Origin: an uncultured Armatimonadia bacterium
Lineage (GTDB): Bacteria > Armatimonadota > Zipacnadia > Zipacnadales > VGFC01
Assembly: GCA_964555935.1 (NCBI GenBank)
Contig: CAZKUN010000005.1
Span: 28,335-92,334, forward strand
DNA length: 64,000 nt
Direction of reading: 5' to 3'
Shown here: positions 654 to 55,569 of the stretch, one piece after another
How the letters are laid out: each line of letters begins with the position of its first letter
Numbering within the stretch: position 1 is the stretch's first letter
Program-made: the position numbers and the translations under genes
Notes under the pieces: generated by a model
What the model saw: only the letters and a program-made list of their open reading frames with translations
Told to the model about the DNA's origin: nothing
Database searches by the model: none

Positions 654-1739
654 ATGAATCCCGGACGCGTCACCTGTCCCCACTGCGGGGCGAAGAACCG
701 ACGCTCAGACATCGTCACCACCTGCAGCAAGTGCATGCAGCCGCTCACCGACGGGCCGCCCCAGCCGCAGTTTCCGGCGCCCATCGAGACGCAACAGCCG
801 GAGCCGAGCCCCCGCTGGAGCGCTGACGAGGAGGTCGGGCTCGCCGATGACGACGAGCCGGTCGGGCCTGGCATTCCGCTAGTCCCCCCGCCACGCGAGG
901 TGCCGGGGCTCGTGAAACTGAGCTGCATCTTCGGCGGCGTCTTCGCTCAGATGGGTTGGATCTTCTTCGGCCTGGGGATGGTCTTCGTCTGGGTCTTCGG
1001 CCCGGAAGTCGACCTCAGCCCGTGGTGGACGGCGGCCTACAAGTTCGAGACGACTCAGGGCGTCGTGACCGACGTCCGGTCAAGCAACTTCACCATAAAC
1101 GACCAGCCCGTCTTTGCGCATACCTACGTCTACTTCTCGCCGGCGGGCGGACAATTCACGGGCGTGTCTCACGCTACCGGGCGCAAGCTGGACATCAATG
1201 CCGAGGTGGAGGTCCAGTACGCCACGAGCCGTCCGCTGGTCTCGCGAATCCGAGGGATGCGAGCCAAGCCCGCGCCGATCTGGGTGCTTGCCATGGTCGG
1301 CATCTTCCCGCTGATCGGACTCGTCTTCATCCTCGTGGCTCTTCCGCCCGGCATCCGCGGCGCGAGGCTGCTGTCGACGGGCAGACTGACCGATGGACGG
1401 CTCCTGGATGTGAAGGCCACCGGCACGCGCGTCAACCGCCGCCCGGTCATGAAGATGACCTTCGAGTTCAAAGACGAGGCAGGCCAGCTTCACCAGACGG
1501 TTGCCAAGACTCACGAGGCCGAGAAGCTGCGAGACCAGAAGCGCGAGGCGCTGCTATACGATCCGGCAAAGCCGACCGTTGCCGCTCTGCTGGATAACCT
1601 GCCCGGACGGCCCATCATCGATGAGACCGGCAGCTTCGGACCTGCGAGCACGGGCAAGGCCATCGCGACACTCATTGCTCCAATGCTTGCAATCGATGCG
1701 CAGATTATCTGCCTTATCGTCCGGTGGCTGCTGCGCTGA
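654..1739 (+). CDS. zinc-ribbon protein with two DUF3592-like modules and TM helices
   Basis: N-terminal CPHCGAKN...CSKC zinc ribbon and a Pro-rich linker. Two beta-rich modules follow, each bracketed by hydrophobic helices. It ends with REALLYDPAKPTVAALLDNLPGRPIIDETG plus a TM helix, as in the upstream gene. The gap to the upstream gene is 13 nt. Confidence 0.6.
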   Translation: MNPGRVTCPHCGAKNRRSDIVTTCSKCMQPLTDGPPQPQFPAPIETQQPEPSPRWSADEEVGLADDDEPVGPGIPLVPPPREVPGLVKLSCIFGGVFAQMGWIFFGLGMVFVWVFGPEVDLSPWWTAAYKFETTQGVVTDVRSSNFTINDQPVFAHTYVYFSPAGGQFTGVSHATGRKLDINAEVEVQYATSRPLVSRIRGMRAKPAPIWVLAMVGIFPLIGLVFILVALPPGIRGARLLSTGRLTDGRLLDVKATGTRVNRRPVMKMTFEFKDEAGQLHQTVAKTHEAEKLRDQKREALLYDPAKPTVAALLDNLPGRPIIDETGSFGPASTGKAIATLIAPMLAIDAQIICLIVRWLLR

Positions 1740-1754
1740 TCACAGGAGACCAAC

Positions 1755-5893: not shown

Positions 5894-7039
5894 CTAGCCC
5901 ATCTCCGCCGCGCGCCGGATCGCCTCGGTGTAGACAGTCACGGCCTTGCGGACCTGGTCGATCTCAACCCATTCAAGGCCCGTGTGAGCCTGGGAGATGT
6001 CGCCCGGCCCGATGACCACCGACGCGATGCCCGCCGCCGCGAAATTGCTCGCATCCGTGCCGTAGTGTACCGCCGCCGTCGACGCGTCACAGACCTCACG
6101 CGCGGCCGATAGAACCGCCTGAGCCCATGGCGAGTCGTCATCGACCTCCATCGGCGAATCGACGATCAATGGCTCGACCGACACCGACGCCATCAGCCCG
6201 CGCTCATCCAAGAAGCGCTGCATCGAGTCCACGACATCGGGCAGGTCCTCATCCGGGAGCACGCGCCGATCGATGCTGATCGCGCAGCGGTCCGGCACGC
6301 TGTTGACGGTTTGGCCGCCGCTGATGGTGCCGACGCTGAGCGTCCTCGGGCCCAGCCGGGGATGAGGCGGCTCTTCCTGCAGGTCCTTCGCCCACTGTTC
6401 CAACGCGCCCACAATCCGAGCCATGCGATAGATAGCGTTGTCGCCTTCCCATGGCGTCGCGGAGTGAGCCGGACGCCCCTTGGCGGTGACCCGCCAGCGA
6501 GCCGCGCCCTTGTGGGCGGTCACGACGTCGAGCTTCGTGGGCTCGCCGACGATCGCGTAGTCGGCCGTGAATCCGGAGTCGACCAGCGCCGAGGCGCCGC
6601 CGAAACTGTATTCCTCATCCGCGGCCGCGCAGAGCCAGACATCGACCGGCGCTCCGCCCGCCTGAAGCTCGGCGAGCGTGACCAGCATCGCGGCCAGCGA
6701 CCCCTTCGCGTCACATGAGCCTCGCCCGTGCAGTCTTCCGTCGGCCTGCACGGGATCAAACGGCGCGATCTCCATGTGATCGACGCGCACCGTATCCATG
6801 TGCGTCTCAAGCAGGATCGACACGTCAGAGCGACCGCCCTCGACCTTGGCCAGCACGTTCTCCCGGCCCGGTTGCACCAGTTGACGCTCCGAGCGGATGC
6901 CGTGCTGGGTCAGGAACTCAGTCACGTAGTCCGCGATACGCGCCTCACCGAACTCGTCCCCGACGGCCGGTTCGCCCATTGGGTTCACGCTCGGGATCGA
7001 CACCAGGTCGGCAAGGACCTCGATTACATCAGGCATCAC
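5894..7039 (-). CDS. M20-family metallopeptidase (ArgE/DapE-like deacylase)
   Basis: LETHMDTV, GRGSCDAKG and ADEE motifs typical of acetylornithine deacetylase or succinyl-DAP desuccinylase-type M20 enzymes. Confidence 0.8.
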   Translation of the reverse strand: MMPDVIEVLADLVSIPSVNPMGEPAVGDEFGEARIADYVTEFLTQHGIRSERQLVQPGRENVLAKVEGGRSDVSILLETHMDTVRVDHMEIAPFDPVQADGRLHGRGSCDAKGSLAAMLVTLAELQAGGAPVDVWLCAAADEEYSFGGASALVDSGFTADYAIVGEPTKLDVVTAHKGAARWRVTAKGRPAHSATPWEGDNAIYRMARIVGALEQWAKDLQEEPPHPRLGPRTLSVGTISGGQTVNSVPDRCAISIDRRVLPDEDLPDVVDSMQRFLDERGLMASVSVEPLIVDSPMEVDDDSPWAQAVLSAAREVCDASTAAVHYGTDASNFAAAGIASVVIGPGDISQAHTGLEWVEIDQVRKAVTVYTEAIRRAAEMG

Positions 7040-7153
7040 GCACCTCGTATTATGCTGGGGAAGTCACGGCCGGGCGACGCGCGCCCGAAGCTGCGAGGGG
7101 GATTTCGGATTCGATCGGGCAATGCCCTCCCACGCGCGCTGAATTGCCGGCGG

Positions 7154-8044
7154 CTACTGGCGGCCTTTGCCGCGCTGGCGCTTGTCGGAGTACATCTGCT
7201 GGTCGGCGCGGTGGAGCAACTCGAAGATGGAGCAGGGGTCCTTGGGATCGTAGAACGCCGTGCCCAGACTCACGGACAGCGTGTACGGCCGAGCCTTGCT
7301 CGTGTTGTGCTCAGCCATCGTGCGCAAGAGCCTTCCCGGGAGCCGGTCGGTCTCGTCCGGGGGAAAGTCGACCATCAGCACGGCGAACTCGTCGCCGCCG
7401 AGACGGGCGATGATATCAGAATCCCTGAAGGTCGTGCGGAAGATGTTCGCGACGTCGTTGATGGCCTGGTCACCATGGGCGTGTCCATGAGTGTCGTTGA
7501 TGTCCTTCAACCCATCCATGTCCGCATAGAGCAGCATTAGCGCCTTGCCGTGCCGGTTCGCGAGCTTGAGTTGTTGCTCGGAAAGAACGACGAATCCGCG
7601 CCTGTTGCTGAGGCCCGAGAGGTCGTCTTGGAGCGATTCCTGTCGGGCCTCCACGAGCAACTGGTGCCGGCCCATCGCAAACCGCACCGCTCGCGGCAGG
7701 GGGATCGGGTCCGTCTTGCCCTTGACGATGTAATCCTGGGCGCCCGAATGCAGGGCGTTCATCCCGGCCTCTTCGTCATCCACGCCGGTGAGCACCATGA
7801 CGGGCTTGCCCAGCGCCGCCGAGCACACGCGCGGAACAGCCTCGATCCCCTGCGCGTCCGGATTGTCCAGATCAAGGAGAATCACATCGGGGTCTGCATC
7901 GGTGAAGCCCGCGAGCGCCGAGTCAATGTCCTCGAAGTGAACGACGCGGAACGCGCCGCCCCCTTGCGCCTCCAACACCTCGCGTATGGCAAAGGCATCG
8001 GTGTGGTCTGCCTCGATCAACAGAACGGTAACCGCCTCTGCCAT
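7154..8044 (-). CDS. response regulator-diguanylate cyclase (REC-GGDEF)
   Basis: Receiver domain (VLLIEADHTD...ILLDLDNPD), then SNRRGF and an intact RLGGDEFAVL active site. An RDSD (RxxD) I-site sits five residues upstream of the active site. Confidence 0.9.
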   Translation of the reverse strand: MAEAVTVLLIEADHTDAFAIREVLEAQGGGAFRVVHFEDIDSALAGFTDADPDVILLDLDNPDAQGIEAVPRVCSAALGKPVMVLTGVDDEEAGMNALHSGAQDYIVKGKTDPIPLPRAVRFAMGRHQLLVEARQESLQDDLSGLSNRRGFVVLSEQQLKLANRHGKALMLLYADMDGLKDINDTHGHAHGDQAINDVANIFRTTFRDSDIIARLGGDEFAVLMVDFPPDETDRLPGRLLRTMAEHNTSKARPYTLSVSLGTAFYDPKDPCSIFELLHRADQQMYSDKRQRGKGRQ

Positions 8045-11815: not shown

Positions 11816-12334
11816 TCATGCCTCGGCGTCCACGATCTCAAGATTGCCCCCGCACGAGGGGCACTTGTGTCCGGGTTCACGGATTGAATACTCGCTTGCA
11901 CAGTACGAGCATTTCTTCGATTTGCGGATCTCCCGCATCCCGGCGAAGGCGTAGTAGAGGTCGTCTCCGCGGATGAGGTGCTCGGCGAGCCCCTGCTGCA
12001 CGTGCCGCTCCAACGAGGCCGAGGCGTCGGCGACTGGCACCCGCAAGCCGCCGGCGACCTCCCCCACCGTCACCTCGCCACCCGACAGTCGCGCGAGCGC
12101 GAGGACCCGCTCGTCGACGCTCTCAGGTGACGTCTGGGCGAGCTTCGCCAGGTGGCGCACTGTGAAGATCGATCCGGCGGCCCCGATGACCAGCATCGTC
12201 AGCCCGATGACTAGGATGTGCGGTTTGCCGCCGCTCCCAATCATGAACGTGAGACCAACAAGGATCAGGATGATCGCAACGACCAGAAGGCACCCGGCAC
12301 CGAAGTACATCGATGACTTGCTTCCCATCGCCAT
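11816..12334 (-). CDS. membrane-anchored protein with wHTH-like segment and C-terminal zinc ribbon
   Basis: Two N-terminal hydrophobic helices, a helical segment (ERVLALARLSGGEVTVGEVAGGL...) and a C-terminal CSYC...CPSC ribbon. Confidence 0.5.
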   Translation of the reverse strand: MAMGSKSSMYFGAGCLLVVAIILILVGLTFMIGSGGKPHILVIGLTMLVIGAAGSIFTVRHLAKLAQTSPESVDERVLALARLSGGEVTVGEVAGGLRVPVADASASLERHVQQGLAEHLIRGDDLYYAFAGMREIRKSKKCSYCASEYSIREPGHKCPSCGGNLEIVDAEA

Positions 12335-12414: not shown

Positions 12415-12891
12415 ATGCCCACAGCAATTCGTCCCGCCGTCGCTGATGACATGCCCAGACTCCAGGAGATCGTCACCCAGATCTGGGCGATCGGATCCGA
12501 CTGGGAACTGGAGGAGAAGTACGGCTCCGTCGGAGACGAATCGTGGGACCGCTGGCTGGTCCCCAAAGTCATGTCCCGCCTCTGGGACGAGATCGCCGCG
12601 ACGCTCGTGACCGAGGTCGATGGCGAGATCGCCGGCTTCATCTCGCACGCGCTCAACAGCGCCCGGCGCGTTGGCTCGATCCACTTCAACGGCGTGGCGC
12701 CTGAGTTTCGCGGAAACGGAATCGGCACCCGCCAAGTCGAGCATGTTCTGGGTCTCATGCGCGAGGCCGGCATGGAGATCGCGGCTGTGGGGACGGGGAT
12801 GAACGACGGCCACGCGCCCGCGCGCCGCGTCTATGAAAAGGCCGGCTTCGAGCCGGTCATCGAGTACCGCATGTACGCTCAACGGCTGTGA
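12415..12891 (+). CDS. GNAT-family N-acetyltransferase
   Basis: MPTAIRPAVADDMPRLQEI... and an acetyl-CoA motif (VAPEFRGNGIGTRQVEHVL). The ATG at 12415 follows gaggaggg. The listed start at 12313 overlaps the convergent neighbour. Confidence 0.8.
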   Translation: MPTAIRPAVADDMPRLQEIVTQIWAIGSDWELEEKYGSVGDESWDRWLVPKVMSRLWDEIAATLVTEVDGEIAGFISHALNSARRVGSIHFNGVAPEFRGNGIGTRQVEHVLGLMREAGMEIAAVGTGMNDGHAPARRVYEKAGFEPVIEYRMYAQRL

Positions 12892-12901
12892 TCCGCTGCC
12901 G

Positions 12902-14233
12902 TCAATCGCCGACCACGCCCGGCAGGTCCAGCGCGCCGCGAGTCTCCGTGGCGAAGCGTCGCAATGTCTTGATGGCCGCGACGGGATTGACGTGTGGCGC
13001 CAAGTCGAGCAATCCCGGGTAGGCCATCAGCAGCTCCGTGTCGGTCTGCGAGGAGAACCGCCGCACGAAGGTGATCAGATCGACCAGGTTCGCTCGTGCG
13101 GCGGTATCCGGAGCCGTCAGCCCGCCCGTGCCCAGAGGATCTCGCATGTGGGCTTCCTTCGGCAGGCCCGCCGCATCCATCGAGACGGCTCTCACCATGC
13201 ATGGGATGCACGCGCCGCACGGTCGTGACATCCGCCCCGCCATCCAGCAGGATACCGCCCCCTGGATTTCCTCAATGCCAAAGTGCTGACTGAGCACGTC
13301 TCGCACCAACTCGCCTTTGGTGTGGTACACGAACGGGTTGGCGACCGCGATGTCGAGGCCGAGCGCGGCAACAAGTTCGCTGAACGCGGAGAGTGTCTGC
13401 GGGCGCGTCCCGGCGGTGGACTGGCCGCCAACGCGCGCCTCGGTGAGTGGCAAGTTCGCCGCCAACAGCCCATTCTCCGGGCAGACCAACTCTCGCGCCC
13501 CGGCCAGGTGGCAGGCGACGGCCCCGAGCGTCAGGTAGAGGAATGAGCGGGCGCGTTGCGAGGTCTCTCGTTCATCCGGCGGCGGGAACGGGTGGGACGT
13601 GTCAGCCGCGCGAGCCGGGCCGCAAGGGACGGCCACGAGCCTTGCGCCTTCGCCGAAGCGGCGCGTGAGGCACCCGTGGACATGCGTCTGCGAGGCCGCC
13701 ACGGTCGCGTTGTGGGGTCGGTGGGCGACGAAGACTGTCTTGCGACCGGCCGCCAGCAGCACCGCTGCGCCGGCGAAAGAGTCGAGGCCGCCCGACAGCA
13801 GCGACACGCAGTCGGCTTCGACCTCCGGCGCGGAAACGCCATCCGAAGCCTCGTCTTCAGCCTCGCGCGCGCAGAAGCCGAAGACATAGGCGTCTTTGCA
13901 CAGCACGTAGAGAAATCGCGCGAGCTGTGGCTCCACGGACGACCAGAAGTCGGGATCTCGCACGGGCACGAGGAACGAAGTCGAGCGGACCCAGTCCTCG
14001 TTCCGCCCGCGCGCAAACGCCAAGTCGGCTGAATAGACGGCCAGCGCGATCTCAAGAAAGTCCCGTAGCCGCGAGGGAATGGCGCCGGGCAGCTCTGCCG
14101 TGATGCGATCCAGGTCAAGCGCCACGTTCCGCCGATCGCCGTCGAAACAGACGGTGAGGTCGGGCTGCGCGTGGCCCGGCGGAGCATCACCCGCTCCGCC
14201 GGCCACGACCACTGTGCGCTGAGAGGGGGTCAT
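12902..14233 (-). CDS. QueC-like PP-loop ATPase with ~150-aa N-terminal extension (QatC-like)
   Basis: PP-loop VSLLSGGLDSFAG and a QueC-type C-terminal Cys cluster (SCW-x8-CGACIPCMVR; compare the SCY...CGKCDSC pattern of QueC). An unrelated ~150-aa domain lies in front. The ATG at 14233 (MTPSQRTVVV) makes an ATGA overlap with the stop of the upstream ORF. No queD/queE/queF genes are nearby. Confidence 0.75.
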   Translation of the reverse strand: MTPSQRTVVVAGGAGDAPPGHAQPDLTVCFDGDRRNVALDLDRITAELPGAIPSRLRDFLEIALAVYSADLAFARGRNEDWVRSTSFLVPVRDPDFWSSVEPQLARFLYVLCKDAYVFGFCAREAEDEASDGVSAPEVEADCVSLLSGGLDSFAGAAVLLAAGRKTVFVAHRPHNATVAASQTHVHGCLTRRFGEGARLVAVPCGPARAADTSHPFPPPDERETSQRARSFLYLTLGAVACHLAGARELVCPENGLLAANLPLTEARVGGQSTAGTRPQTLSAFSELVAALGLDIAVANPFVYHTKGELVRDVLSQHFGIEEIQGAVSCWMAGRMSRPCGACIPCMVRAVSMDAAGLPKEAHMRDPLGTGGLTAPDTAARANLVDLITFVRRFSSQTDTELLMAYPGLLDLAPHVNPVAAIKTLRRFATETRGALDLPGVVGD

Positions 14234-14964
14234 GCGATCCCTCCCAGGGCTCGAAGACTCTCGCCCAGAGCCGTCTTCAGCACGCCGCGATACTGCGAAG
14301 TGCTCGCCGGTCCCGCGTCGGCCGCGCGCCACAAGTCGTCCTCGAGGCCGCCTAGCTCCAACCCACGCGTGGTGCCCTCGCAGATGGCGGAGATGTCGCT
14401 CGTCAGTCTAGCCGCGTCAGCAACAGTTCCCAGACGCCCGCCACCTACGTGCGCCGGGAGGTCGCGCTCGACGAAGTACCTGAAAGCGTAAGACACGTCC
14501 TGAGCGAGGAACGTGCCGGCAAGCTCGGACAGGCGTCGCTCGGCTGCGTAGCGGGCCAATGCGGCGCGAACGGCTTCTGAAGTGTCATCCGCGCCCTGAC
14601 CGACCTCAAGCGCGGACGCGGAGAGCGCGTCCAATGCAATCTCGCCAAAACGCGAAGCCTCGCGCGCATCGATGATCGATCGCTCGGCCGTCGACCTCAG
14701 AGCGGCTGCGAGATCCCAGGAGGCAGGCAATGCGGGGGATACGGAGAGCTGGGCAGCGTCGATCGCGCCCGTGCTGGCGCCCGTCAGCGTACCCATGCAC
14801 CGGGCGACCGCCGCGTCGGCCATCTGCTCGCGCGTCGTAGGAGTTAGCGCGTCGACGATCCCCGAGACGATGGCTTCGGGTGGAGCTTCCGGGTCGGCGT
14901 AAAGCCTCTGGACCCGGTCCCAAGCCGGCGTGCGCGGCGACCTGTGACTAGAGGATGTTCCCAT
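14230..14964 (-). CDS. hypothetical alpha-helical protein coupled to the QueC-like gene (possible QatB analogue)
   Basis: Ala/Leu-rich ORF whose stop overlaps the downstream start (ATGA). I prefer the start at 14964 (MGTSSSHRSP...) because it leaves a ~100-nt divergent promoter gap. An alternative start is the listed 15039. I recognise no motif. Confidence 0.5.
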   Translation of the reverse strand: MGTSSSHRSPRTPAWDRVQRLYADPEAPPEAIVSGIVDALTPTTREQMADAAVARCMGTLTGASTGAIDAAQLSVSPALPASWDLAAALRSTAERSIIDAREASRFGEIALDALSASALEVGQGADDTSEAVRAALARYAAERRLSELAGTFLAQDVSYAFRYFVERDLPAHVGGGRLGTVADAARLTSDISAICEGTTRGLELGGLEDDLWRAADAGPASTSQYRGVLKTALGESLRALGGIA

Positions 14965-15064
14965 TGGTCGATTCTTGGGTGATGTTTCCCCTCTCGATGC
15001 CCAAACCCCTCCGCCACGAAGAGGAGATGCGGCGCGCATCCGGGAAATGCAGGGCCACAGACCA

Positions 15065-15856
15065 ATGGACGATAGACACTCCGGACAAGACAGACCACGC
15101 AGTAACGGGCCCTGCGCTTGCGGCAGCGCGCTGCCGGCGGCGCTGTGCTGCGACGCGCGACGCGCGTTCGCCGGCGAGACTCAGCCCGCGTCCTTCGTCC
15201 CCACCGACGAGGTCGATATCACCGCGGCCCAGTGGGAGCTGTCCATCGCGACGGTGCAGGCGATCGTGACCGTCTTGCCGGACGTTCCCGTTCCGCTGCT
15301 CGGCAACCGCACGCCCAGGGCATTGTGCGCGGCCGGCCCGGAAGAACGAGCCGCAGCCCATGCCTACCTGGATTCCCTGGCCAACACGGCCGAGGCGGTT
15401 GGGATCGAGTTCCCGAGCGGCGACATCGTCCGCGAGATGTTCACGCCCGAGACGCGCAAGCACTCGTGCGACGACCGCGACAATATCACGCTCGCGATGC
15501 TGACGCTCCAGCTTCTGGCGCGCGGCTTTGAGGAGCCGGCAGTGCTCGGCGCGCACAGGCTGTTCCGCGACATCAAGCGCGTGATGGCTGAGCATTTCCG
15601 CAAGCCCAATTCGTTTGCCGCGTCGGTTGACTTCGCGCTGTGCTGGATGCACTTCCGGCCGGAATCGCGCCAGGAGGTCGCCGACATCTACCAGGTCGGC
15701 GACGCAACGGTCGCGAAGCACTTCGGCGCCATGAAACAGGAGCTGAAGCTCGTCTGGTATGACCCCCGCTACGCCGTCCAGGACCCCGAGTGGCAGGAGA
15801 TGCTCGAGCGCCACGCGCAGGCGATGGCCAACGGCGAAGCCGCGGACCCCGAGTAG
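15065..15856 (+). CDS. SEC-C-motif protein, otherwise uncharacterised
   Basis: N-terminal GPCACGSALPAALCC matches the CxCGS-x7-CC SEC-C metal-binding pattern, and the rest is helical. The start is uncertain (15047 or 15065; listed 14975). It is divergent from the QueC-like pair. Confidence 0.5.
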   Translation: MDDRHSGQDRPRSNGPCACGSALPAALCCDARRAFAGETQPASFVPTDEVDITAAQWELSIATVQAIVTVLPDVPVPLLGNRTPRALCAAGPEERAAAHAYLDSLANTAEAVGIEFPSGDIVREMFTPETRKHSCDDRDNITLAMLTLQLLARGFEEPAVLGAHRLFRDIKRVMAEHFRKPNSFAASVDFALCWMHFRPESRQEVADIYQVGDATVAKHFGAMKQELKLVWYDPRYAVQDPEWQEMLERHAQAMANGEAADPE

Positions 15857-15926: not shown

Positions 15927-16415
15927 GTGCGAGTGGCAGCAAAGCGTCTTCGCAAGCGCAAGCCAAACAGCCGACCGCCGTGGTCGCCTGCGACGCCGGA
16001 TGCGGAAGAGCACGCCGAGCCGTTCATGCTCACCTGCACCGGTTGCGGCCAACCCGTCGAGAGCACTGAGCACGCGTGTCCGAGCTGCACTACGGTCTTC
16101 CACCAACGGCCCGGCACGGCGCCGCGGATTGAGAGTGGCCAGACGCCGCGACAGCTTGACGCCGAGGCTGTTGAGTTCTCCGACCGTATGGACGGGATCG
16201 AGAAGTGGACGCGGATCATCTGCATCCTGATCGGGACACTCGCGGCGATTGCCTTCGTCACGCTGCTGCTGCTTGGCTCGATTCGCGGATCGTTCCTCTT
16301 CGTTGTGATCGCGCTGGTCTGCCTGGCGCGAGGTCTCTACGGCGGCGACAAGGACCTTCACGTGTTGGAGTGGTTCGGCGGGTGGTCGTACGGACGTTGG
16401 CGATTCCGGCGGTAG
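15927..16415 (+). CDS. zinc-ribbon membrane protein, paralogue 1
   Basis: MLTCTGCGQPVESTEHACPSCTTVFHQRPGTAPRI...AVEFSDRMDGIEKW, then two hydrophobic helices. It is clearly paralogous to 16493..16921. Confidence 0.55.
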   Translation: MRVAAKRLRKRKPNSRPPWSPATPDAEEHAEPFMLTCTGCGQPVESTEHACPSCTTVFHQRPGTAPRIESGQTPRQLDAEAVEFSDRMDGIEKWTRIICILIGTLAAIAFVTLLLLGSIRGSFLFVVIALVCLARGLYGGDKDLHVLEWFGGWSYGRWRFRR

Positions 16416-16492: not shown

Positions 16493-16921
16493 ATGTCAGC
16501 ACAGCGTGTCCGTAGGCCGAACGCGTCGCGGGGGTGGCTGCAGTGGCTCGTCCCGCCAAAGCCGGCGGACGCGCCCGAGCGGGCGATGCTAACATGCACG
16601 GCGTGCTTCCGCCCGGTTGAGCCCGCCGAGCACTGCTGCCCAGACTGCGAGACTGTCTTCTATCAGCCGCCCGACACTGCCCCTCGCATCCCGGTGTCTG
16701 ACACGCCGAGCCAGCCCGACGCGAAGACGGCCGAGTTCTCAGAGAGGATGGAGCGGGTGGATGGCTGGCTGCGAGCGGCTTGCCTCACTGGGGTCGGCCT
16801 ATCCGCGGGTGCGCTTGTCGCGGCGCTCGCCACCGACAATGGCCACATGTGGTGGACGCCCGTATCGATCGCCCTGGCCTGCCTGGGTCGATACGCCTTC
16901 ATCGGCAATGCCGACCTCTAA
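16493..16921 (+). CDS. zinc-ribbon membrane protein, paralogue 2
   Basis: MLTCTACFRPVEPAEHCCPDCETVFYQPPDTAPRI...TAEFSERMERVDGW, then two hydrophobic helices. Confidence 0.55.
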   Translation: MSAQRVRRPNASRGWLQWLVPPKPADAPERAMLTCTACFRPVEPAEHCCPDCETVFYQPPDTAPRIPVSDTPSQPDAKTAEFSERMERVDGWLRAACLTGVGLSAGALVAALATDNGHMWWTPVSIALACLGRYAFIGNADL

Positions 16922-18277: not shown

Positions 18278-21076
18278 TCACCCGGCCCACTCCAACTTCG
18301 GCTCGCCCCACACGGCCCAATCCCAGCCAGAGTTGCCGAGGGAGTCCGTCACCAACGAGACCAACACCGTGTCTCCGCGGCCATGGATATTGACCTCGCC
18401 GTCCACCCACCCCTTCGGCGCATCGAAACGCTCGCGCCACGCGGACTGACCATTGATCTCCACCCCCATCGATGCCTGCTTGCCGCCATCCCTGAGGCCG
18501 CATGAGAAGGCGAGTTTCACCGGCTCTCGCGGGAGCTTCAGCACCCAGTCCAGACGCGTCTCTCCCTGCCAGGGCGGGTGCGCGCTGATGCCGCGAATCG
18601 ACCGCCCGCCGATCTCGAACTCGTCCACCATCCCCGCGCCCCAGACGCTATGCTCGACGACCCGCCCGCCGACGGAGATGTTCGTGGTGAAGGGCAGATC
18701 GATGAGCGATACTGGCCCGCCGACATCCGCCACTTCGTAGGCGTGGATGAGCGTCCAAGGGTCGATGCCCTCGATCACGGCGACGGGCTCGCGATCCGTT
18801 TGGATGGTTGCGCTGATGGGATCGGCGCGCGGCAAGCCGACGACGATGCGCGGCTCGGCGATGGCGGCCCAGTCGTATCCAGCGTCGCCAAGTTCGCCGG
18901 GATCAACCGACAGCTCGAGTTCGACCGTTTGACCGGCGAACGCTGCTAGATCAACATCCCGGTCGGCCCACCGCCGCGAGGCATGTTGCCACTGCGCCAG
19001 ACGGTCACCATCCACGCGGACCGTGGCGCGAATCCCATCGCCGGGCGCTTCGCCGCGCTGGCGAGCCGGGAGGTCGCGAAGGCCGGTGGCGAGTCGCAGC
19101 CAGAGCGGCTGGCGGTCTGGGAGCCGGAGCCGCCAGCGCAGCACGGTTTCGGCCTCGGGCGTCGCTCCCTCGTCGAATTGCCAGGGCGGGTGAACCAGTA
19201 TCGCGTCGCGCTCGTCCCCGCCGCAGATCGCCGAGGCCGGAGCGACCTGGGCCCCATGCCCGATGGCAAGCTCTGCACCGTCAACTCGGATGAAGAACAC
19301 GGGCGGCTGGCGCAGGAGATCAACAACTATCTCGGGCGCGGGCTTCAGCCGCGCGAAGGCGCGCTGCGCGTTCTCGCCGGCGGTCACTCGCACGGGTTCG
19401 GAGCAATCGGTGAGGCCGAATCCGGAGCGGCCCGCGTCGCCTTCGGGCAAGTACACGTGCTCGGGCCAGAGGCCGAAAGCCGTGCCGTTGCGCCACGCCC
19501 TCCAGTGCGGAATCGGCTCATTCGACGTGGCCGCGCCTTCGACGATCTGCGTCGCGTCCGCCAGCGCCATGCGCGTCCCCGGCTCATCCGCGTTTAACGC
19601 CTTGTGGATCGTCAGCCCCGGCAGCGCGCCGATGCAGTCGTGGACGCCTTGGAACGTGAACCACGCGCGCCGATCCCAGTGGGTCCCCACCTGCGTCGGC
19701 ACGGCCAAATGGTGGTAGGTCTGCGAGTAGTCCTGGAAGATGAAGCTGCTGACGGGATGGTGGTCGCCATGCTTGGCGTCCATGTTGTCCATCGCCGCCG
19801 CGCCGCTTTGCACGAAGCTCGCGCCGAGCAGGTTGTGGCTCTGCGCCTCGACGCTCAACGCGACCTCGGGAAGCGCCTCGCGAATCTCACGCACCAGCAA
19901 CTCGGCGCCGCGAGCGGGATTGATGCCACCTACCGGGCCGGGGAGCGAGTTATTGAACGCGGGGTAATCGAGGTGGATCGCATCGAAGGGCGTGTCCGCG
20001 TAAGCTGCGGCGTAGGCATCGACGAACAGGCGCCGGACCTCGGGGAAGGCGGGGTTGAGCATGACGATCTCAGTCGGCGCGCCGCTGCCGAGCATCCACC
20101 CCACGATGTTCCCATTCTGAGGGTAGCGCTCGGCGAATCTCTCGTATTGGGGGTACAGCTCGTGCCTTGGCCCAATGCCGAGCAGATTGCCATGGACCAT
20201 CACCCGGAAGCCCATCTCTCGAGCCGCCGGGATCAGCTCGCGAGCATGCGCCGAGGGCGTGAAGTCCGGGTAGTCGACGTCGTATGGAAGCTCGCGCCAG
20301 TGGGGATAGTAGAGCACGGCCCGGGGCGGATCCGCGACCTGCGCAAATCGCCTGAGCGCATCGATGTCGACGTCGCCGGCAAGCTCTGCGACGCGCGTGA
20401 TCCGCGCCCCCCAGGCCGGCGAATTCGGCGGCTGGCGCTCGGACCGACGCAGCGCCTCGCGGTAGATTCCAGCGCCGACTTGCCACTCTCCCTCGTACCC
20501 GAGAAAGCGCCACGTCGGGCCAGCGATCTCGATGACTTCCTCCCACGGCGGATCCGCCTGGCGCCTCAGCGCGAACGAGACCACTCCCGCCGCGCGCTGC
20601 GCTTCGATCGACACGAAGGGGTAACTCGCGTCGTCCGCATAGATGAGCACTCCGCCCGCCGCTCCCTGAACGAGCACCATCGGCGCCTCAAGGCCCCATG
20701 CCGAGTAGGCATAGTCCTCGCGCCATGGCTTGCAGTCGCCATCAATCTCGATGCCGCCCATAGCGGGGATGATGAGTCGGACCTCGTCTAGCCCAAACGG
20801 CCCGACGACGATGCGCGACTCCGTCAGCAGACCTTCGCCTTTACGCGCTGTAGCTGTCGCCGTGACCGCATCACCATCCACCGCCAACGTAACGTCCGTC
20901 AACTCATCCATGGCGGGCAACGTGGCAAATGGATCCGGGTCGACCGCGGCATAGTTCTCGCCGGTGATCCGGTTGGAAACAGCAGCGATGCGGCCGTCGG
21001 TCAGGTCGAGGGAAACGGTGCGACTCTCGAGGGGAGCGGCGGCGGCGACTCCAGCGCAGAGGAGCGCTGCGATCAT
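18278..21076 (-). CDS. large secreted protein, central glycoside-hydrolase-like TIM-barrel region suspected
   Basis: Signal peptide MIAALLCAGVAAAAP. The central segment (YYPHWRELPYDVDYPDFTP...GFRVMVHGNLLG...AIHLDYP) resembles sugar-processing barrels, but I recognise no named family. Its start overlaps the XPB stop (ATGA). Confidence 0.45.
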   Translation of the reverse strand: MIAALLCAGVAAAAPLESRTVSLDLTDGRIAAVSNRITGENYAAVDPDPFATLPAMDELTDVTLAVDGDAVTATATARKGEGLLTESRIVVGPFGLDEVRLIIPAMGGIEIDGDCKPWREDYAYSAWGLEAPMVLVQGAAGGVLIYADDASYPFVSIEAQRAAGVVSFALRRQADPPWEEVIEIAGPTWRFLGYEGEWQVGAGIYREALRRSERQPPNSPAWGARITRVAELAGDVDIDALRRFAQVADPPRAVLYYPHWRELPYDVDYPDFTPSAHARELIPAAREMGFRVMVHGNLLGIGPRHELYPQYERFAERYPQNGNIVGWMLGSGAPTEIVMLNPAFPEVRRLFVDAYAAAYADTPFDAIHLDYPAFNNSLPGPVGGINPARGAELLVREIREALPEVALSVEAQSHNLLGASFVQSGAAAMDNMDAKHGDHHPVSSFIFQDYSQTYHHLAVPTQVGTHWDRRAWFTFQGVHDCIGALPGLTIHKALNADEPGTRMALADATQIVEGAATSNEPIPHWRAWRNGTAFGLWPEHVYLPEGDAGRSGFGLTDCSEPVRVTAGENAQRAFARLKPAPEIVVDLLRQPPVFFIRVDGAELAIGHGAQVAPASAICGGDERDAILVHPPWQFDEGATPEAETVLRWRLRLPDRQPLWLRLATGLRDLPARQRGEAPGDGIRATVRVDGDRLAQWQHASRRWADRDVDLAAFAGQTVELELSVDPGELGDAGYDWAAIAEPRIVVGLPRADPISATIQTDREPVAVIEGIDPWTLIHAYEVADVGGPVSLIDLPFTTNISVGGRVVEHSVWGAGMVDEFEIGGRSIRGISAHPPWQGETRLDWVLKLPREPVKLAFSCGLRDGGKQASMGVEINGQSAWRERFDAPKGWVDGEVNIHGRGDTVLVSLVTDSLGNSGWDWAVWGEPKLEWAG

Positions 21077-22770
21077 CAGGAATCCTCCAGCAACCCGGGC
21101 GGAAGGCCCGTGCTGATGGTGTAGCTGTAGCCTTGCTCGGTCAGGAAGAGCTGGCGGTTCGCGCTGAACTCCTGCTCGCGAGTGTCCTTGGTGACCAGCG
21201 TGTAGAACCGCGCCTGGCCGCCATCCGCCTTCGGACGCAAGATGCGCCCCAGGCGCTGCGCCTCCTCCTGGCGCGAGCCGAAGGTGCCCGAGACCTGGAT
21301 GGCGACGTTCGCGTCGGGGAGATCGATCGCGAAGTTGGCGACCTTCGAGACCACCAGCTGCTTCAGCTCGCCTCGGCGGAACTGCCCGTATAGCCTCTCG
21401 CGTTCCTTGTTCGGCGTCCGCCCGGTGATGATCGGGGCCTTGACGACATCCGCGATCGCGTCGAGCTGAGAGAGATACTGCCCGATGATCAGCACTTGGT
21501 CATCGCAATGCCTGGCGAGGAGTTCAAGCAGGATCGGAATCTTGGCTGGATTCTCAGCGGCGAGGCGGTACTGGATCCCCCGCGTCGCGACCGAGTACTC
21601 GACCCGCGATTCCGTCGGCATCGGCACGCGGATCTCCGCGCAGAGCGCCTGCGCGATCCAACCTTTTGACTCAAGGTCCTTCCACGGAATGTCGTAGCGC
21701 TTCGGCCCGATCAGCGAGAAGACTTCGCTCTCGCGTCCGTCCTCACGCACGAGCGTCGCCGTCAGCCCGAGCCGCCGTCGCGCCTGGATGTCGGTGGTCG
21801 CGCGGAACACGGGGGCGGGCAGCAGATGCACCTCGTCGTAGATGATGAGCCCCCAGTTATTCTCAGTCATCAGCTTCAGGTGCGGGAAGTCGGCCTTCTT
21901 GCTCGGCCGCCAGGTCATGCACTGGTACGTGGTGATCGTGACGGGCCGGACTTCCTTCTTGTCGCCGGTGTACTCGCCGATCTCATCCTCGCCTAGCGTT
22001 GACTTGTCGCGCAACTCGTCTATCCACTGACGGACCGCAACCGTGTTCGTCGAGATGATCAGAGTCCAGCACTTCAGCGCCGCTATCGCGCCCATGCCGA
22101 CCATCGTCTTGCCCGCTCCACATGGCATCACGATGACGCCGTTCCCGCCGTAGACCGTGCCGCCCGCGTGAAACGCGCCGACCGCGTCGGTCTGGTAGTC
22201 GCGCAACCCAAACTCCCCACCCGATCGCGAGACATCCAGCAACCCCACCTCAAGCGGCTCGCCGGGCGTGTACCCGGCGAGGTCTTCGACGGGCCATCCG
22301 AGCTTGACGAGCTTCTGTTTGATCTGTCCGCGCGCCGCCGGGTCGATGAGAATTGCCTGCGGGCTGATGCGGTGGGCCAGCACCGAGTAGAGGTCGCGCT
22401 GTCCCTCGAGTTCTGTCAGCAGCAATTCGTCCTCGGAGACCAGCAGGAGGTGCCCGTTCTTGCGGATCAGCTTCAGCCGGCCGTAACGGCTCATGTAGTC
22501 GCGAACGTCCTCCAGCACGTTGCCGGGGACGTCGTACTTGCTCAGGTCCTCAAGCGCCTCGGTGATCTGCGGGGGGGCCATGCCTGTCGCGGCCGCATTC
22601 CACAGCGACAGCGGACTGATCCGATAGGTGTGGACGTACTCGGGCGACTTCACAACCTCTGCAAACCGCGCGAGTCGATCCCGCGCCTCTTCGTATCGAG
22701 GGTTTTGCACCTCTAGCAATATCGTACCGTCGCTCTGCACGATGAGCGGGTTCGCGGGGTCCATGGTCAC
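21076..22770 (-). CDS. XPB/Ssl2 (ERCC3)-type superfamily-2 DNA helicase
   Basis: N-terminal PLIVQSDGTILLEV...HTYRISPLSLWNA damage-recognition-like domain, Walker A MPCGAGKT, DEVH box (IIYDEVHLLPA) and the XPB-specific RED motif (ATLVREDGRE). Confidence 0.9.
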   Translation of the reverse strand: MTMDPANPLIVQSDGTILLEVQNPRYEEARDRLARFAEVVKSPEYVHTYRISPLSLWNAAATGMAPPQITEALEDLSKYDVPGNVLEDVRDYMSRYGRLKLIRKNGHLLLVSEDELLLTELEGQRDLYSVLAHRISPQAILIDPAARGQIKQKLVKLGWPVEDLAGYTPGEPLEVGLLDVSRSGGEFGLRDYQTDAVGAFHAGGTVYGGNGVIVMPCGAGKTMVGMGAIAALKCWTLIISTNTVAVRQWIDELRDKSTLGEDEIGEYTGDKKEVRPVTITTYQCMTWRPSKKADFPHLKLMTENNWGLIIYDEVHLLPAPVFRATTDIQARRRLGLTATLVREDGRESEVFSLIGPKRYDIPWKDLESKGWIAQALCAEIRVPMPTESRVEYSVATRGIQYRLAAENPAKIPILLELLARHCDDQVLIIGQYLSQLDAIADVVKAPIITGRTPNKERERLYGQFRRGELKQLVVSKVANFAIDLPDANVAIQVSGTFGSRQEEAQRLGRILRPKADGGQARFYTLVTKDTREQEFSANRQLFLTEQGYSYTISTGLPPGLLEDS

Positions 22771-31154: not shown

Positions 31155-31817
31155 CTATGAGGACGCGGACAGGCAGCACGAGTTGAGAGGGCATCGCTCG
31201 CAGGCGGGGTCTCGGGGGCGGCAGCGGGCGGCGGCGAGGTCGATGATCGCCCAATTCCAATTGCGGTGGGCGCGTGGCGGAAGGACGTGTTGGGCGGCTT
31301 CCCATATCTCCCTGGGAGGGCGCCTGCGAGGGTGACACTCCGTCAACCCCAAGATGCGCGACAGCACCCGCCAGACGTTGCGGTCGACGATAGCCACCCT
31401 CTCACCGAAGGCGAAACACCGAACGGCGTTGGCCCCGTACGGTCCCACCCCCGGCAGGGAGAGCAGGTCAGCCGGATCAGCCGGGACCTCCCCCTCGAAG
31501 CGATCCACTAGCTCGCGACCGATCGACCGGAGCCACTCCGCGCGTTTGAATAGCCCCAGCGGCGCGACGAGGCGTGCCATGGTCCTTACACGACCGCGCG
31601 CCAGCGCCCGGGGCCTCGGGTATCGCTGGATGAACTGCTCGAAGATCTCCGCAACCTGGGGCCCGGTGGTTTTCTGCAGCAGAACTTCCGAGACCAGGAT
31701 GCGGTAGGGGGATGCGTCGGATCGCCAGGGGAAGGTCCGTCTGCAACGACCATACCAGCGCAACAGATGCCCATTCAGTTCCCGGCACAGGGCCTGGTCG
31801 GGCAGACGCGCACTCAC
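31155..31817 (-). CDS. HhH-GPD DNA glycosylase of the MutY/Mig type, no MutT-like C-terminal domain
   Basis: WYGRCRRTFPWR...PYRILVSEVLLQKT, HhH (LLSLPGVGPYGANAV), catalytic-Asp context (IVDRNVWRV) and a 4Fe-4S loop (CRPRDPACERCPLNSCC). Its GTG start overlaps the methyltransferase stop (GTGA). Confidence 0.8.
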   Translation of the reverse strand: MSARLPDQALCRELNGHLLRWYGRCRRTFPWRSDASPYRILVSEVLLQKTTGPQVAEIFEQFIQRYPRPRALARGRVRTMARLVAPLGLFKRAEWLRSIGRELVDRFEGEVPADPADLLSLPGVGPYGANAVRCFAFGERVAIVDRNVWRVLSRILGLTECHPRRRPPREIWEAAQHVLPPRAHRNWNWAIIDLAAARCRPRDPACERCPLNSCCLSASS

Positions 31818-55545: not shown

Positions 55546-55569
55546 ACTTCCGCTCCTCACCAGTGGCTC

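What the first reader, a model, noticed from the sequence alone, without database searches (positions are those of the whole stretch)
12902..14964. Stand-alone QueC-like + partner pair: a minimal QatB/QatC-type module?
The 443-aa protein has a PP-loop (SGGLDS) and the QueC-type Cys cluster (SCW...CGACIPCMVR). It also carries a ~150-aa unrelated N-terminal domain and sits far from any queuosine genes. It is translationally coupled (ATGA) to a ~245-aa helical protein of unknown function. QueC-like enzymes with this layout are known from anti-phage systems: QatC in QatABCD and Cap9 in type IV CBASS. In QatABCD the gene before qatC (qatB) is of similar size. Here there is no ATPase (QatA), TatD nuclease (QatD), CD-NTase or TGT-like gene. 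The downstream gene is convergent and the upstream gene is divergent. This could therefore be a reduced or new QueC-based system. If the start at 14964 is right, the partner begins Met-Gly. That would matter if the QueC-like enzyme modifies its partner's N-terminus, which is pure speculation.
Basis: partly seen in the sequence, partly recalled or inferred. Interest (0 to 1): 0.75.

Follow-up and report, generated by a model that had tools for sequence, protein, structure and literature searches.

The report
Natural two-gene QatB–QatC module
This is a naturally minimal version of the Qat anti-phage system: a QueC-like enzyme (QatC type) and the helical partner whose N-terminal glycine it most likely modifies. 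It has no QatA or QatD, belongs to a divergent Armatimonadota lineage that current defence-finder models miss, and has an altered enzyme pocket and a conserved TFIIB-like neighbour gene.

Summary
On the minus strand, a 244-aa ORF (14230-14964) overlaps by ATGA a 443-aa QueC-like ORF (12902-14233). The enzyme belongs to the QatC family, not housekeeping QueC: QatC models score 196-221 bits and QueC models 17-30 bits.

The partner matches no QatB model. It does start with MGTSSSHRSPRTPAW, the published QatB N-terminal signature (MGTS plus P-x-W). Its confident AlphaFold model finds QatB as the only meaningful PDB fold match (9y01_A, TM about 0.5).

The pair is co-conserved and tightly coupled in 27 of 27 species-level genomes with readable downstream sequence, nearly all Armatimonadota. 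No QatA, QatD or CBASS gene appeared in the searches I could read, either in these flanks or in the 64-kb window.

Two new points emerged:
- The window's clade has a fixed change in the putative substrate pocket (STRTTHP to ST[AG][GS]xRP, and RR to RA).

Most likely mechanism: ATP-dependent conjugation, possibly deazaguanylation, onto Gly2 of the partner, by analogy with published QatBC. An anti-phage role is inferred, not shown. This is a new variant of a known kind, of moderate interest.

The parts
12902..14233 (-). QatC-like QueC-family PP-loop enzyme, 443 aa, with QatC-type N- and C-terminal extensions
   Evidence: PADLOC QatC E=1.9e-58. NCBIfam NF041925 QatC scores 221.5 bits, below the 280-bit equivalog cut-off. 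phmmer to solved QatC 9vlk/9zee gives E=6.5e-35 and 1e-32.
13778..13795 (-). PP-loop SGGLDS (ATP pyrophosphate-binding motif), residues 147-152
   Evidence: Read from the sequence. Aligns with S156-S161 of P. aeruginosa QatC. Invariant across the family.
13400..13420 (-). Putative substrate-pocket motif STAGTRP (residues 272-278). Canonical QatC has STRTTHP (T278, T280, H282 in P. aeruginosa).
   Evidence: Alignments. All 20 clade-A sequences have ST[AG][GS][TAV]RP. None of the other 64 aligned relatives has that form; nearly all keep the canonical ...HP motif, apart from five degenerate sequences.
13196..13249 (-). Four-Cys zinc cluster C-x9-C-x2-C-x2-C followed by VRA. The loop is shorter than the canonical C-x19-C, and canonical RR is RA here.
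   Evidence: Motif definitions from PMC13329287 and PMC13279940.
14230..14964 (-). QatB-like partner, 244 aa, all-alpha, N-terminus MGTSSSHRSPRTPAW. Predicted protein substrate of the enzyme.
   Evidence: N-terminal motif conserved. AF2 pLDDT 92.4. Foldseek top PDB hit is QatB 9y01_A, prob 1.00, TM 0.49/0.54. No hit to QatB sequence models.
14920..14964 (-). Codons for MGTSSSHRSPRTPAW: the Gly2 acceptor motif plus the P-x-W element
   Evidence: M1, G2, T3, S4, R8, S9, P10, T12 and W15 are invariant in 17 full-length homologues. Published QatB has MGTS plus Pro16/Trp18 (PMC13279940).
14230..14233 (-). ATGA stop/start overlap (translational coupling)
   Evidence: In the 18 GTDB loci where I read it off, the gap between the two genes is -4 to +15 nt.
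15065..15856 (+). Divergently transcribed TFIIB-like protein, 263 aa, with an N-terminal GPCxCGSxLPxxLCC knuckle and two cyclin-like repeats. Candidate regulator or third component in this subclade.
   Evidence: 47-57% identical orthologues sit divergently next to the pair in L007, L015 and L017 despite different outer flanks. The family has 29 clusters, at least 10 on the same contigs as QatB/C homologues. AF2 pLDDT 84.5. The top Foldseek hits (ranks 1-32) are all TFIIB/TFB/Brf. Pfam TFIIB repeat E=0.008, below threshold.
12415..12891 (+). Convergent GNAT acetyltransferase. It recurs directly after the QatC-like gene in other loci and is probably a synteny marker rather than a component.
   Evidence: Pfam Acetyltransf_1 E=5.5e-14. 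Present downstream in 8 loci at 61-73% identity, so it evolves more slowly than QatB/C.

Best explanation
This is a naturally minimal QatBC module. The 443-aa protein is a QatC-family PP-loop enzyme, and the 244-aa protein translated just before it is a very divergent QatB-type substrate protein. The proposed steps are as follows. (i) The two are made in 1:1 coupled fashion and form a complex. (ii) Methionine aminopeptidase removes Met1 of the partner and exposes Gly2. (iii) The enzyme uses ATP to adenylate a carboxylate donor. In canonical systems this is 7-carboxy-7-deazaguanine (CDG). (iv) The Gly2 alpha-amine of the partner, positioned by the conserved SP-x-TP-x-W segment, attacks the activated donor and forms an N-terminal amide adduct (deazaguanylation or a related modification). 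(v) The modified complex restricts phage by an unknown step that needs no QatA ATPase or QatD nuclease. Shown here: family membership of the enzyme, the QatB-type N-terminal motif and fold of the partner, strict gene coupling and co-conservation, and no QatA/QatD/CBASS gene found in the searches I could read. Inferred from the literature: steps ii-iv and the defence role. Speculative: the clade-specific pocket change (R279A/G, T280G/S, H282R, RR to RA) alters donor specificity, and the TFIIB-like divergent gene regulates or partners the pair.
For: Enzyme: PADLOC QatC E=1.9e-58, NCBIfam QatC 221.5 bits, solved QatC E=6.5e-35. D63-equivalent D58, SGGLDS, H180-equivalent, RxRxxxY, ENG, P-x4-TK and four Zn cysteines are all present. 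Partner: the invariant MGTS..RSP.T..W N-terminus matches the published QatB MGTS/P16/W18 motif. The AF2 model (pLDDT 92.4) has QatB 9y01_A as its top hit among 350,542 PDB chains, with prob 1.00 and TM ~0.5, while the remaining listed hits have TM of at most 0.28. Linkage: ATGA overlap. QatB-like is followed directly by QatC-like in 27/27 GTDB loci with readable downstream sequence and in four metagenome contexts with unrelated flanks. Two remote family members (191-aa MGTS... and 260-aa MGH...) also sit directly upstream of QatC-family enzymes. Literature: truncated qatBC alone defends against lambda-vir, and QatB G2D abolishes defence (PMC13279940). QatBC alone protects against lambda and P1 (PMC13434339). 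An NDG-modified GTSKAY peptide of QatB was found by LC-MS/MS (PMC13639016). The pair evolves faster than its syntenic neighbours (QatB 32-61% and QatC 38-60% identity against GNAT 61-73% in the same loci), as immune genes often do.
Against: No experiment exists on this lineage. The helical domain of the partner shows no significant sequence or profile similarity to canonical QatB. The Foldseek E-value alone is weak (0.064). The partner's predicted flexible tail is only ~12 residues, against 30-90 in canonical QatB (PMC13279940). One of the two 'invariant' threonines (T280) and the conserved His282 are replaced, and T278A/T280A kills P. aeruginosa Qat, so the chemistry may differ. The locus is not in an obvious mobile or defence island: no tRNA, integrase or flanking repeats, GC like the surroundings, and synteny with GNAT or dnaA conserved across species. 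That pattern would also fit a lineage-specific housekeeping modification. Whether the genome can supply CDG is unknown.
Confidence: 0.7

Rival explanations
1. It is a lineage-specific housekeeping or regulatory protein-modification module of Armatimonadota. The enzyme still modifies the partner's N-terminal glycine, but the purpose is cellular (for example regulation through the TFIIB-like DNA-binding protein) rather than anti-phage immunity.
For: The pair sits in conserved chromosomal neighbourhoods across species: GNAT downstream in 8 loci, dnaA-dnaN-recF upstream in 5, and DHDPS-167aa-145aa upstream in 6-7. There are no integrases, tRNAs or flanking repeats. GC is not atypical. Immediate neighbours give no defence hits. 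The putative donor pocket is altered.
Against: Every characterised member of the QatC family is an anti-phage component (PMC13279940, PMC13376578, PMC13639016, PMC13329287). The pair diverges faster than its neighbours. Some relatives sit beside defence-type or mobile genes: a STAND NTPase in L008, a FokI-domain nuclease in L047, and integrase/recombinase at smpB in L045. The pattern search found the pair in only 30 species genomes, so it is not universal in the phylum.
Confidence: 0.2
2. It is a decaying remnant of a qatABCD operon that lost qatA and qatD and no longer functions.
For: QatA and QatD were not found. The enzyme falls below the NCBIfam QatC equivalog cut-off. One 'invariant' Thr and the His are substituted.
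Against: Both ORFs are intact and tightly coupled. The pair is conserved in at least 30 species with catalytic motifs preserved, and the pocket change is fixed in 20/20 clade members rather than random. Truly degenerate relatives look different: P0060 has lost RxR and the ENG glutamate.
Confidence: 0.05
3. It is the housekeeping QueC (preQ0 synthase) fused to extra domains, with an unrelated upstream gene.
For: Pfam QueC matches the C-terminal third at 29.6 bits. Some sources annotate homologues as 7-cyano-7-deazaguanine synthase.
Against: QueC models score only 17-30 bits against 196-221 bits for QatC models. In canonical QatC the substrate-recognising Tyr/Asp of QueC/Cap9 are replaced by Thr, and here the aligned positions are Thr/Gly (PMC13279940); the other QueC motifs were not inspected. 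E. coli QatC cannot complement a queC deletion (PMC13329287). The partner is strictly co-conserved.
Confidence: 0.02
4. It is a Cap9-type enzyme of a type IV CBASS whose CD-NTase and Cap10 lie elsewhere.
For: It shares the QueC fold and the logic of N-terminal glycine conjugation (PMC13279940).
Against: At 443 aa with QatC extensions it does not resemble Cap9, which is ~185 aa (PMC13329287). No CD-NTase family appeared in the full PADLOC scans of 17 genes around the pair or in the precomputed Pfam annotation of the locus flanks; no direct CD-NTase or TGT query was run. The partner is helical and QatB-like, not a nucleotidyltransferase.
Confidence: 0.01

Closest known systems
QatB-QatC core of the QatABCD anti-phage system (E. 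coli, P. aeruginosa; PDB 9y01, 9zee, 9vll, 9WVJ)
   Same: The enzyme carries the QatC-specific N- and C-terminal extensions, the PP-loop, the Zn-Cys cluster, and the D63, R233 and F/Y237 equivalents. The partner gene lies immediately upstream and is translationally coupled. The partner starts MGTS with a downstream P-x-W and has an all-alpha fold whose best PDB match is QatB. Engineered qatBC alone is sufficient for defence against some phages.
   Different: There is no qatA (KAP NTPase) or qatD (TatD), whereas one survey found 98.1% of detected Qat clusters to be full qatABCD (PMC13434339). The partner is invisible to PF28083 and to the three PADLOC QatB models. Its tail is ~12 aa rather than 30-90 aa. 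The pocket motif is ST[AG][GS]xRP rather than STRTTHP. The Zn loop is C-x9-C rather than C-x19-C, and RR is RA. A TFIIB-like divergent gene is conserved next to the pair. Inheritance in Armatimonadota appears chromosomal and vertical.
Cap9-CD-NTase (type IV CBASS deazaguanylation; PDB 9NTO)
   Same: A QueC-family enzyme conjugates a donor to the N-terminal Gly (after Met removal) of a partner protein encoded nearby, by ATP-dependent activation.
   Different: Cap9 is minimal (~185 aa) and keeps the QueC Tyr/Asp CDG-binding residues. Its substrate is a CD-NTase with an MGGS start, and it needs Cap10 (TGT-like). None of these is present here.
Housekeeping QueC (7-cyano-7-deazaguanine synthase, PF06508 / TIGR00364)
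   Same: Rossmann-like PP-loop ATP pyrophosphatase core, SGGxDS motif and a four-Cys zinc site.
   Different: It scores far below the QueC model cut-offs (19.7 bits against 150.3 for TIGR00364). It carries extra N- and C-terminal domains, the QueC substrate motifs are not evident, and it is always paired with a protein substrate candidate.

Membership tests
QatC (Qat QueC-like protein) | Significant match to QatC-specific profile models, stronger than to QueC models | tested here: met
   PADLOC PDLC02214 E=1.9e-58 against QueC 8.7e-4. phmmer to solved QatC gives E=6.5e-35.
QatC (Qat QueC-like protein) | Reaches the NCBIfam NF041925 equivalog cut-off (280 bits) | tested here: not met
   221.5 bits. 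It is therefore a divergent subfamily, which explains why sources call homologues 'hypothetical' or 'QueC'.
QatC (Qat QueC-like protein) | SGGxDS PP-loop, adenine-binding R233/F237, D63, ExG, P-x4-TK and four Zn cysteines | tested here: met
   SGGLDS, RARSFLY, D58, ENG, PFVYHTK and C329/C339/C342/C345 are present. The Cys spacing is shorter (C-x9-C).
QatC (Qat QueC-like protein) | Invariant T278 and T280 plus the HP motif (STRTTHP) in the putative substrate pocket, and CxxRR after the Zn knuckle | tested here: not met
   The motif here is STAGTRP. T278 and P283 are kept, T280 is Gly, H282 is Arg, and RR is RA. This is fixed in 20/20 clade-A sequences and absent from all 64 others.
QatC (Qat QueC-like protein) | QatC-specific N-terminal and C-terminal extensions around the QueC core | tested here: met
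   The QatC HMM covers residues 56-410. Length is 443 aa, against ~220 for QueC. Basic-patch residues for QatB binding were not mapped.
QatB | Match to QatB sequence models (PF28083; PADLOC PDLC02211-02213) | tested here: not met
   No hit even at E=10. The precomputed Pfam field shows '-', whereas Vibrio QatB shows PF28083. As a positive control, Vibrio QatB hits the PADLOC models at 1.3e-36. hhalign aligns only the N-terminal 15 residues.
QatB | Conserved N-terminal MGTS motif with downstream Pro/Trp (G2 acceptor) | tested here: met
   MGTSSSHRSPRTPAW. M1, G2, T3, S4, P10 and W15 are invariant and P13 nearly so in 17 homologues. Compare P. aeruginosa MGTSKGYGGPSSGLVPSW and the motif described in PMC13279940.
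QatB | Globular ~10-helix fold of QatB | tested here: inconclusive
   The AF2 model has 11 helices and pLDDT 92.4. Its best PDB match is QatB 9y01_A with prob 1.00, but TM is only 0.49/0.54, rmsd 6.0 and E 0.064.
QatB | Encoded immediately upstream of qatC and forms a 1:1 complex with it | tested here: met
   Gene order and coupling are met in 27/27 loci. Complex formation cannot be tested here because no multimer prediction is available.
QatABCD system | Presence of QatA (KAP NTPase, PF07693) and QatD (TatD, PF01026) in the operon | tested here: not met
   tblastn with Vibrio QatA and QatD found nothing in the window or in 34 related loci. Precomputed Pfam shows neither within +/-10 kb. Neither appears in the window-wide Pfam and PADLOC lists. 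Those two lists were truncated to 25 families, so weak hits could be hidden.
Type IV CBASS (Cap9) | Adjacent CD-NTase with an MGGS N-terminus and a Cap10 TGT-like protein | tested here: not met
   No such genes in the +/-10 kb annotation or the PADLOC scans.
Housekeeping QueC | Reaches the TIGR00364 / PF06508 full-length thresholds and functions in preQ0 synthesis | tested here: not met
   TIGR00364 scores 19.7 bits against a cut-off of 150.3. Pfam QueC covers only model positions 133-206. Function was not tested.

The most novel reading that the evidence does not exclude
The window's clade is a distinct three-gene system: a TFIIB-like protein, a QatB-like protein and a remodelled QatC. The remodelled pocket (Arg279 to Ala/Gly, Thr280 to Gly/Ser, His282 to Arg, RR to RA) would conjugate a donor other than 7-carboxy-7-deazaguanine onto Gly2 of the partner. 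The bacterial TFIIB-like protein would be a functional component, as sensor, regulator or target, that takes the place of QatA/QatD.
Probability: 0.2. Interest if true: 0.75.

Novelty: new variant of a known kind. Interest (0 to 1): 0.55.

Why it matters
Published work shows that an artificially truncated qatBC operon still defends, yet a survey of detected Qat loci reports that nearly all are full qatABCD. That leaves open what QatBC does on its own and what QatC's first substrate is. This lineage shows that nature maintains QatA/QatD-less QatBC pairs over long evolutionary times, in at least 30 species. Their QatB is so divergent that PADLOC and Pfam models miss it, so such systems are systematically under-counted. 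The broader 'MG(T/H)...P.T..W' helical family has 295 representative clusters, and both remote members I checked sit next to QatC-type enzymes. This gives a handle for finding them. The fixed pocket substitutions offer a natural experiment on donor specificity. The minimal pair is also a simple system for working out the effector step. The co-conserved bacterial TFIIB-like protein is an unusual fold for bacteria and worth a look in its own right.

Tried and rejected
- Sequence and profile links between the partner and canonical QatB all failed or caught only the first 15 residues. I tried phmmer and an A1 profile against PDB, BLASTP against Vibrio QatB, phmmer and jackhmmer of Vibrio QatB against 186 family members, and hhalign of A2 against a 3-sequence canonical QatB alignment rebuilt from PDB hit alignments. 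That last alignment is thin, so the negative result is weak.
It worked with A2.
- The divergent intergenic region (14965-15064) showed no conserved operator when aligned with three orthologous regions. No sigma-70-like promoter was found either.
- No tRNA genes and no meaningful direct or inverted repeats flank the locus, so there is no evidence for a mobile island.
- The window-wide PADLOC and Pfam scans through an alignment id list only 25 families. They can exclude strong QatA/QatD hits but not weak ones.
- I guessed that the C5 methyltransferase lay at 54361-55560. That was wrong. It is at 31814-33028.
- I considered whether the 268-aa gene after the QatC-like gene in L010 was related to the TFIIB-like gene. 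It is not.
Full report
**1. What is in the sequence**

On the minus strand, a 244-aa ORF (14230-14964) ends in a TGA that overlaps the ATG of a 443-aa ORF (12902-14233) as ATGA. The longer mechanical ORF for the enzyme, from a GTG at 14332, is not supported. Homologues are 440-451 aa, and gene callers on six identical public contigs aa and 244 aa.

The enzyme has SGGLDS (13795-13778) and SCW-x7-PCGACIPC (13249-13196). The partner starts MGTSSSHRSPRTPAW. GC content around the locus (0.67) matches the rest of the window (0.62-0.68).

**2. The enzyme is QatC-family, not housekeeping QueC**

- PADLOC QatC gives E=1.9e-58 (196 bits), against E=8.7e-4 for its QueC model.
- NCBIfam QatC (NF041925) gives 221.5 bits, against 19.7 bits for TIGR00364 QueC.
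- Pfam QueC matches only the last third of its model, at 29.6 bits.
- phmmer against PDB sequences finds only QatC chains: 9vlk_A at E=6.5e-35 and 9zee_B at 1e-32, aligned over residues 58-355.

Most residues known to matter are present:
- D58, equivalent to E. coli D63
- S147/D151/S152, equivalent to S156/D160/S161
- the His equivalent to H180
- R-A-R-S-F-L-Y, equivalent to R233/F237
- ENG and P-x4-TK
- four zinc cysteines

The score is below NCBIfam's equivalog cut-off of 280 bits. That explains why public records name the homologues "hypothetical protein" or "7-cyano-7-deazaguanine synthase".

**3. A clade-specific change in the putative donor pocket**

In canonical QatC the motif STRTTHP contains T278 and T280. 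These replace the Tyr/Asp that bind CDG in QueC and Cap9, and mutating them (T278A/T280A) abolishes defence (PMC13279940).

Here the aligned segment is STAGTRP. I aligned 84 QatC-type sequences:
- All 20 sequences at least 52% identical to the window protein carry ST[AG][GS][TAV]RP and end the zinc knuckle with RA.
- None of the other 64, including annotated QatC, has that form. Nearly all carry [ST]T[RHK]x[TA]HP and RR; the exceptions are five degenerate sequences (P0059-P0063), a few single substitutions, and several clade-B sequences that also end RA.

So T278 and P283 are kept, while R279 becomes A/G, T280 becomes G/S and H282 becomes R. This is a fixed, coordinated change, not random decay. 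It could mean a different donor molecule, but I cannot test that.

**4. The partner is a QatB-type protein that sequence models cannot see**

It has no hit in Pfam, NCBIfam or PADLOC, even at E=10. The precomputed Pfam field shows "-" for it, whereas canonical Vibrio QatB shows PF28083. As a control, Vibrio QatB hits the three PADLOC QatB models at up to 1.3e-36. Direct comparisons with canonical QatB were not significant beyond the first 15 residues.

Three independent features nevertheless identify it.

(a) N-terminal motif. M1, G2, T3, S4, R8, S9, P10, T12 and W15 are invariant in 17 full-length homologues, and this is the most conserved stretch of the protein. [quoted passage not shown] In that work, G2D and deletion of residues 16-22 both abolished defence (PMC13279940). 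Compare:
- P. aeruginosa: MGTSKGYGGPSSGLVPSW
- Vibrio: MGTSQSSNGSPSGVPMVPPW

(b) Fold. The AlphaFold2 model built from the 17-sequence alignment is confident (pLDDT 92.4, pTM 0.90) and all-alpha, with 11 helices. Searched against 350,542 PDB chains, its top hit is 9y01_A, "QatB-QatC complex in qatABCD anti-phage defense", with prob 1.00 and TM 0.49/0.54. The remaining listed hits have TM of at most 0.28. The Foldseek E-value is only 0.064, so I treat the fold match as supportive, not conclusive.

(c) Genomic coupling, described next.

**5. Co-conservation and absence of the other Qat genes**

A pattern search of one genome per GTDB species returned 30 loci. Nearly all are Armatimonadota (Armatimonadia, Candidatus Zipacnadia), and two are labelled candidate division WS1.

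- In all 27 loci where sequence continues beyond the partner gene, a QatC-like gene follows on the same strand. In the 18 loci where I read off the spacing it is -4 to +15 nt. The other three loci end at a contig edge.
- Four metagenome contexts with completely different flanking genes show the same pair.
- tblastn with Vibrio QatA and QatD found nothing in any flank (up to +/-10 kb) or anywhere in the 64-kb window.
- Precomputed Pfam annotations show no KAP_NTPase or TatD_DNase near the pair.
- Window-wide and neighbour PADLOC/Pfam scans show no Qat or CBASS component other than QatC. Caveat: two of these outputs list only the top 25 families.

An exhaustive profile search found 295 representative clusters related to the partner (83 at E<=1e-10). 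The listed full-length members nearly all begin MGTS...SP.T..W or MGH.RLG.LP.T..W; others are truncated or mis-started calls. Both remote members I looked up sit directly upstream of a QatC-family enzyme:
- a 431-aa enzyme flanked by a FokI-domain protein
- a 584-aa enzyme between an integrase and a recombinase next to smpB

**6. The surroundings**

The divergently transcribed gene (15065-15856, 263 aa) is not a bystander. Orthologues at 47-57% identity occupy the same divergent position in L007, L015 and L017, although the outer flanks differ. The family has only 29 clusters. At least ten share contigs with QatB/QatC homologues, judged by matching contig lengths and by consecutive locus tags ACUVX8_18140/18145/18150. 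One clade-A locus (L008) lacks it.

Its N-terminus has an invariant PCxCGSxLPxxLCC knuckle, with a sub-threshold SEC-C match. Its AF2 model (pLDDT 84.5) matches TFIIB, TFB and Brf core domains in all of the top 32 Foldseek hits, with prob up to 1.00, TM 0.26-0.43 and best E 7e-3. This agrees with a sub-threshold Pfam TFIIB-repeat hit (E=0.008). The presence of this gene coincides with the altered-pocket clade. A regulator of the divergent promoter is the simplest reading, but I found no conserved operator.

Downstream, a convergent GNAT acetyltransferase recurs right after the QatC-like gene in 8 loci, at 61-73% identity. A 172-aa zinc-ribbon/membrane protein recurs in 5 loci. Other subclades have dnaA-dnaN-recF or DHDPS-167aa-145aa upstream. 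In the same genome pairs the neighbours are more conserved than QatB-like (32-61%) and QatC-like (38-60%).

This pattern indicates a chromosomal, largely vertically inherited locus in which the pair evolves fast. No tRNA, integrase or flanking repeats are present.

**7. Mechanism**

By analogy with published QatBC and Cap9-CdnD work, the proposed sequence is:
- Met1 of the partner is removed, which is established behaviour of methionine aminopeptidase before Gly.
- The QatC-like enzyme activates a carboxylate donor with ATP.
- The Gly2 amine attacks, giving an N-terminal conjugate.

For E. coli QatB, an NDG-modified GTSKAY peptide has been seen by LC-MS/MS (PMC13639016). Edman sequencing shows Gly as the first residue (PMC13376578). 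Truncated qatBC alone protects against lambda-vir, and against lambda and P1 (PMC13279940, PMC13434339). How modified QatB stops phage is unknown for any system.

Two differences here may matter. The predicted flexible tail is short (~12 residues before helix 1, against 30-90). The pocket is altered (section 3).

**8. Comparison with what is known, and novelty**

The module works like QatBC and its enzyme is a QatC-family member, but it fails several membership criteria of the QatABCD system:
- no QatA or QatD
- no match to QatB models
- below the NCBIfam QatC equivalog cut-off
- pocket motif not conserved

The literature is split. One survey of detected Qat loci found 98.1% to be full qatABCD and lists no natural qatBC-only form (PMC13434339). 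A QueC-superfamily network analysis found that only ~34% of QatC-cluster genes have qatA or qatD nearby, and did not characterise the rest (PMC13329287). This locus is a concrete, well-conserved example of that uncharacterised remainder.

I rate it a new variant of a known kind. A specialist would find it useful rather than astonishing.

**9. Limits**

- No multimer prediction was available.
- I could not examine the rest of the genome for the CDG pathway or a housekeeping queC.
- The defence role is inferred.
- The fold match for the partner is borderline by TM-score and E-value.

Noticed in passing
window 15065-15856 (+); also L007 9113-9922 (-), L015 ~1271-2011 (-), L017 ~7017-7763 (-): A bacterial TFIIB-like protein: an N-terminal PCxCGSxLPxxLCC knuckle plus two cyclin-like repeats. 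Foldseek hits are almost exclusively TFIIB/TFB/Brf. It was found only next to clade-A QatBC pairs (29 clusters).
   Followed up: partly
window 15927-16415 (+) and 16493-16921 (+): Two tandem paralogous small proteins (43% identical). Each has an N-terminal CxxC...CxxC zinc ribbon and a C-terminal hydrophobic segment. They have no family hits and were not found in related loci.
   Followed up: partly
window 12415-12891 (+) and 11816-12334 (-): A GNAT acetyltransferase and a 172-aa membrane/zinc-ribbon protein recur directly downstream of the QatC-like gene in 8 and 5 loci. The GNAT is more conserved (61-73%) than QatB/C. This is probably ancestral synteny, but a functional link is not excluded.
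   Followed up: partly
window 31155-33028 (-): A C-5 cytosine DNA methyltransferase (31814-33028; FSGAGG, PCQ and ENV motifs; PF00145 E=3.7e-55) overlaps by 4 nt a 220-aa ORF (31155-31817). That ORF is probably the protein behind the PADLOC 'type II nicking endonuclease' hit, which would make this a likely R-M pair ~17 kb from the locus.
   Followed up: partly
window 21076-25421 (-): An XPB/ERCC3-like helicase (564 aa, with weak PADLOC PbeA hits) is translationally coupled to an 884-aa Helicase_C_3 + WYL-domain protein. A 932-aa protein without any family hit follows (18278-21076).
   Followed up: no
L008 11988-13997 (-): In one clade-A locus, a STAND NTPase (AAA_16/NACHT/nSTAND1 + HEAT repeats) lies convergent immediately after the QatC-like gene. 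It is inserted between that gene and the usual GNAT neighbour, which gives this locus a defence-island flavour.
   Followed up: no
L047 190-3637; L045 5003-10275: Remote QatB-like proteins define other architectures. One is FokI-cleavage-domain protein + 191-aa MGTS protein + 431-aa QatC + 204-aa unknown. The other is a 260-aa MGH.RLG.LP.T..W protein + 584-aa QatC with a C-terminal extension, between an integrase and a serine recombinase beside smpB.
   Followed up: partly
proteins P0059-P0063 (relatives of the window enzyme, 46-49% identity): A small subgroup of QatC-like proteins has lost the S-T of the pocket motif ([SA]xTGIQP). At least P0060 has also lost the RxR and the ENG glutamate. 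These may be catalytically dead versions.
   Followed up: no
L018, L019, L023, L025, L042 (upstream of the pair): In one subclade the QatB/QatC-like pair lies divergent to dnaA-dnaN-recF, next to the presumed replication-origin region.
   Followed up: no
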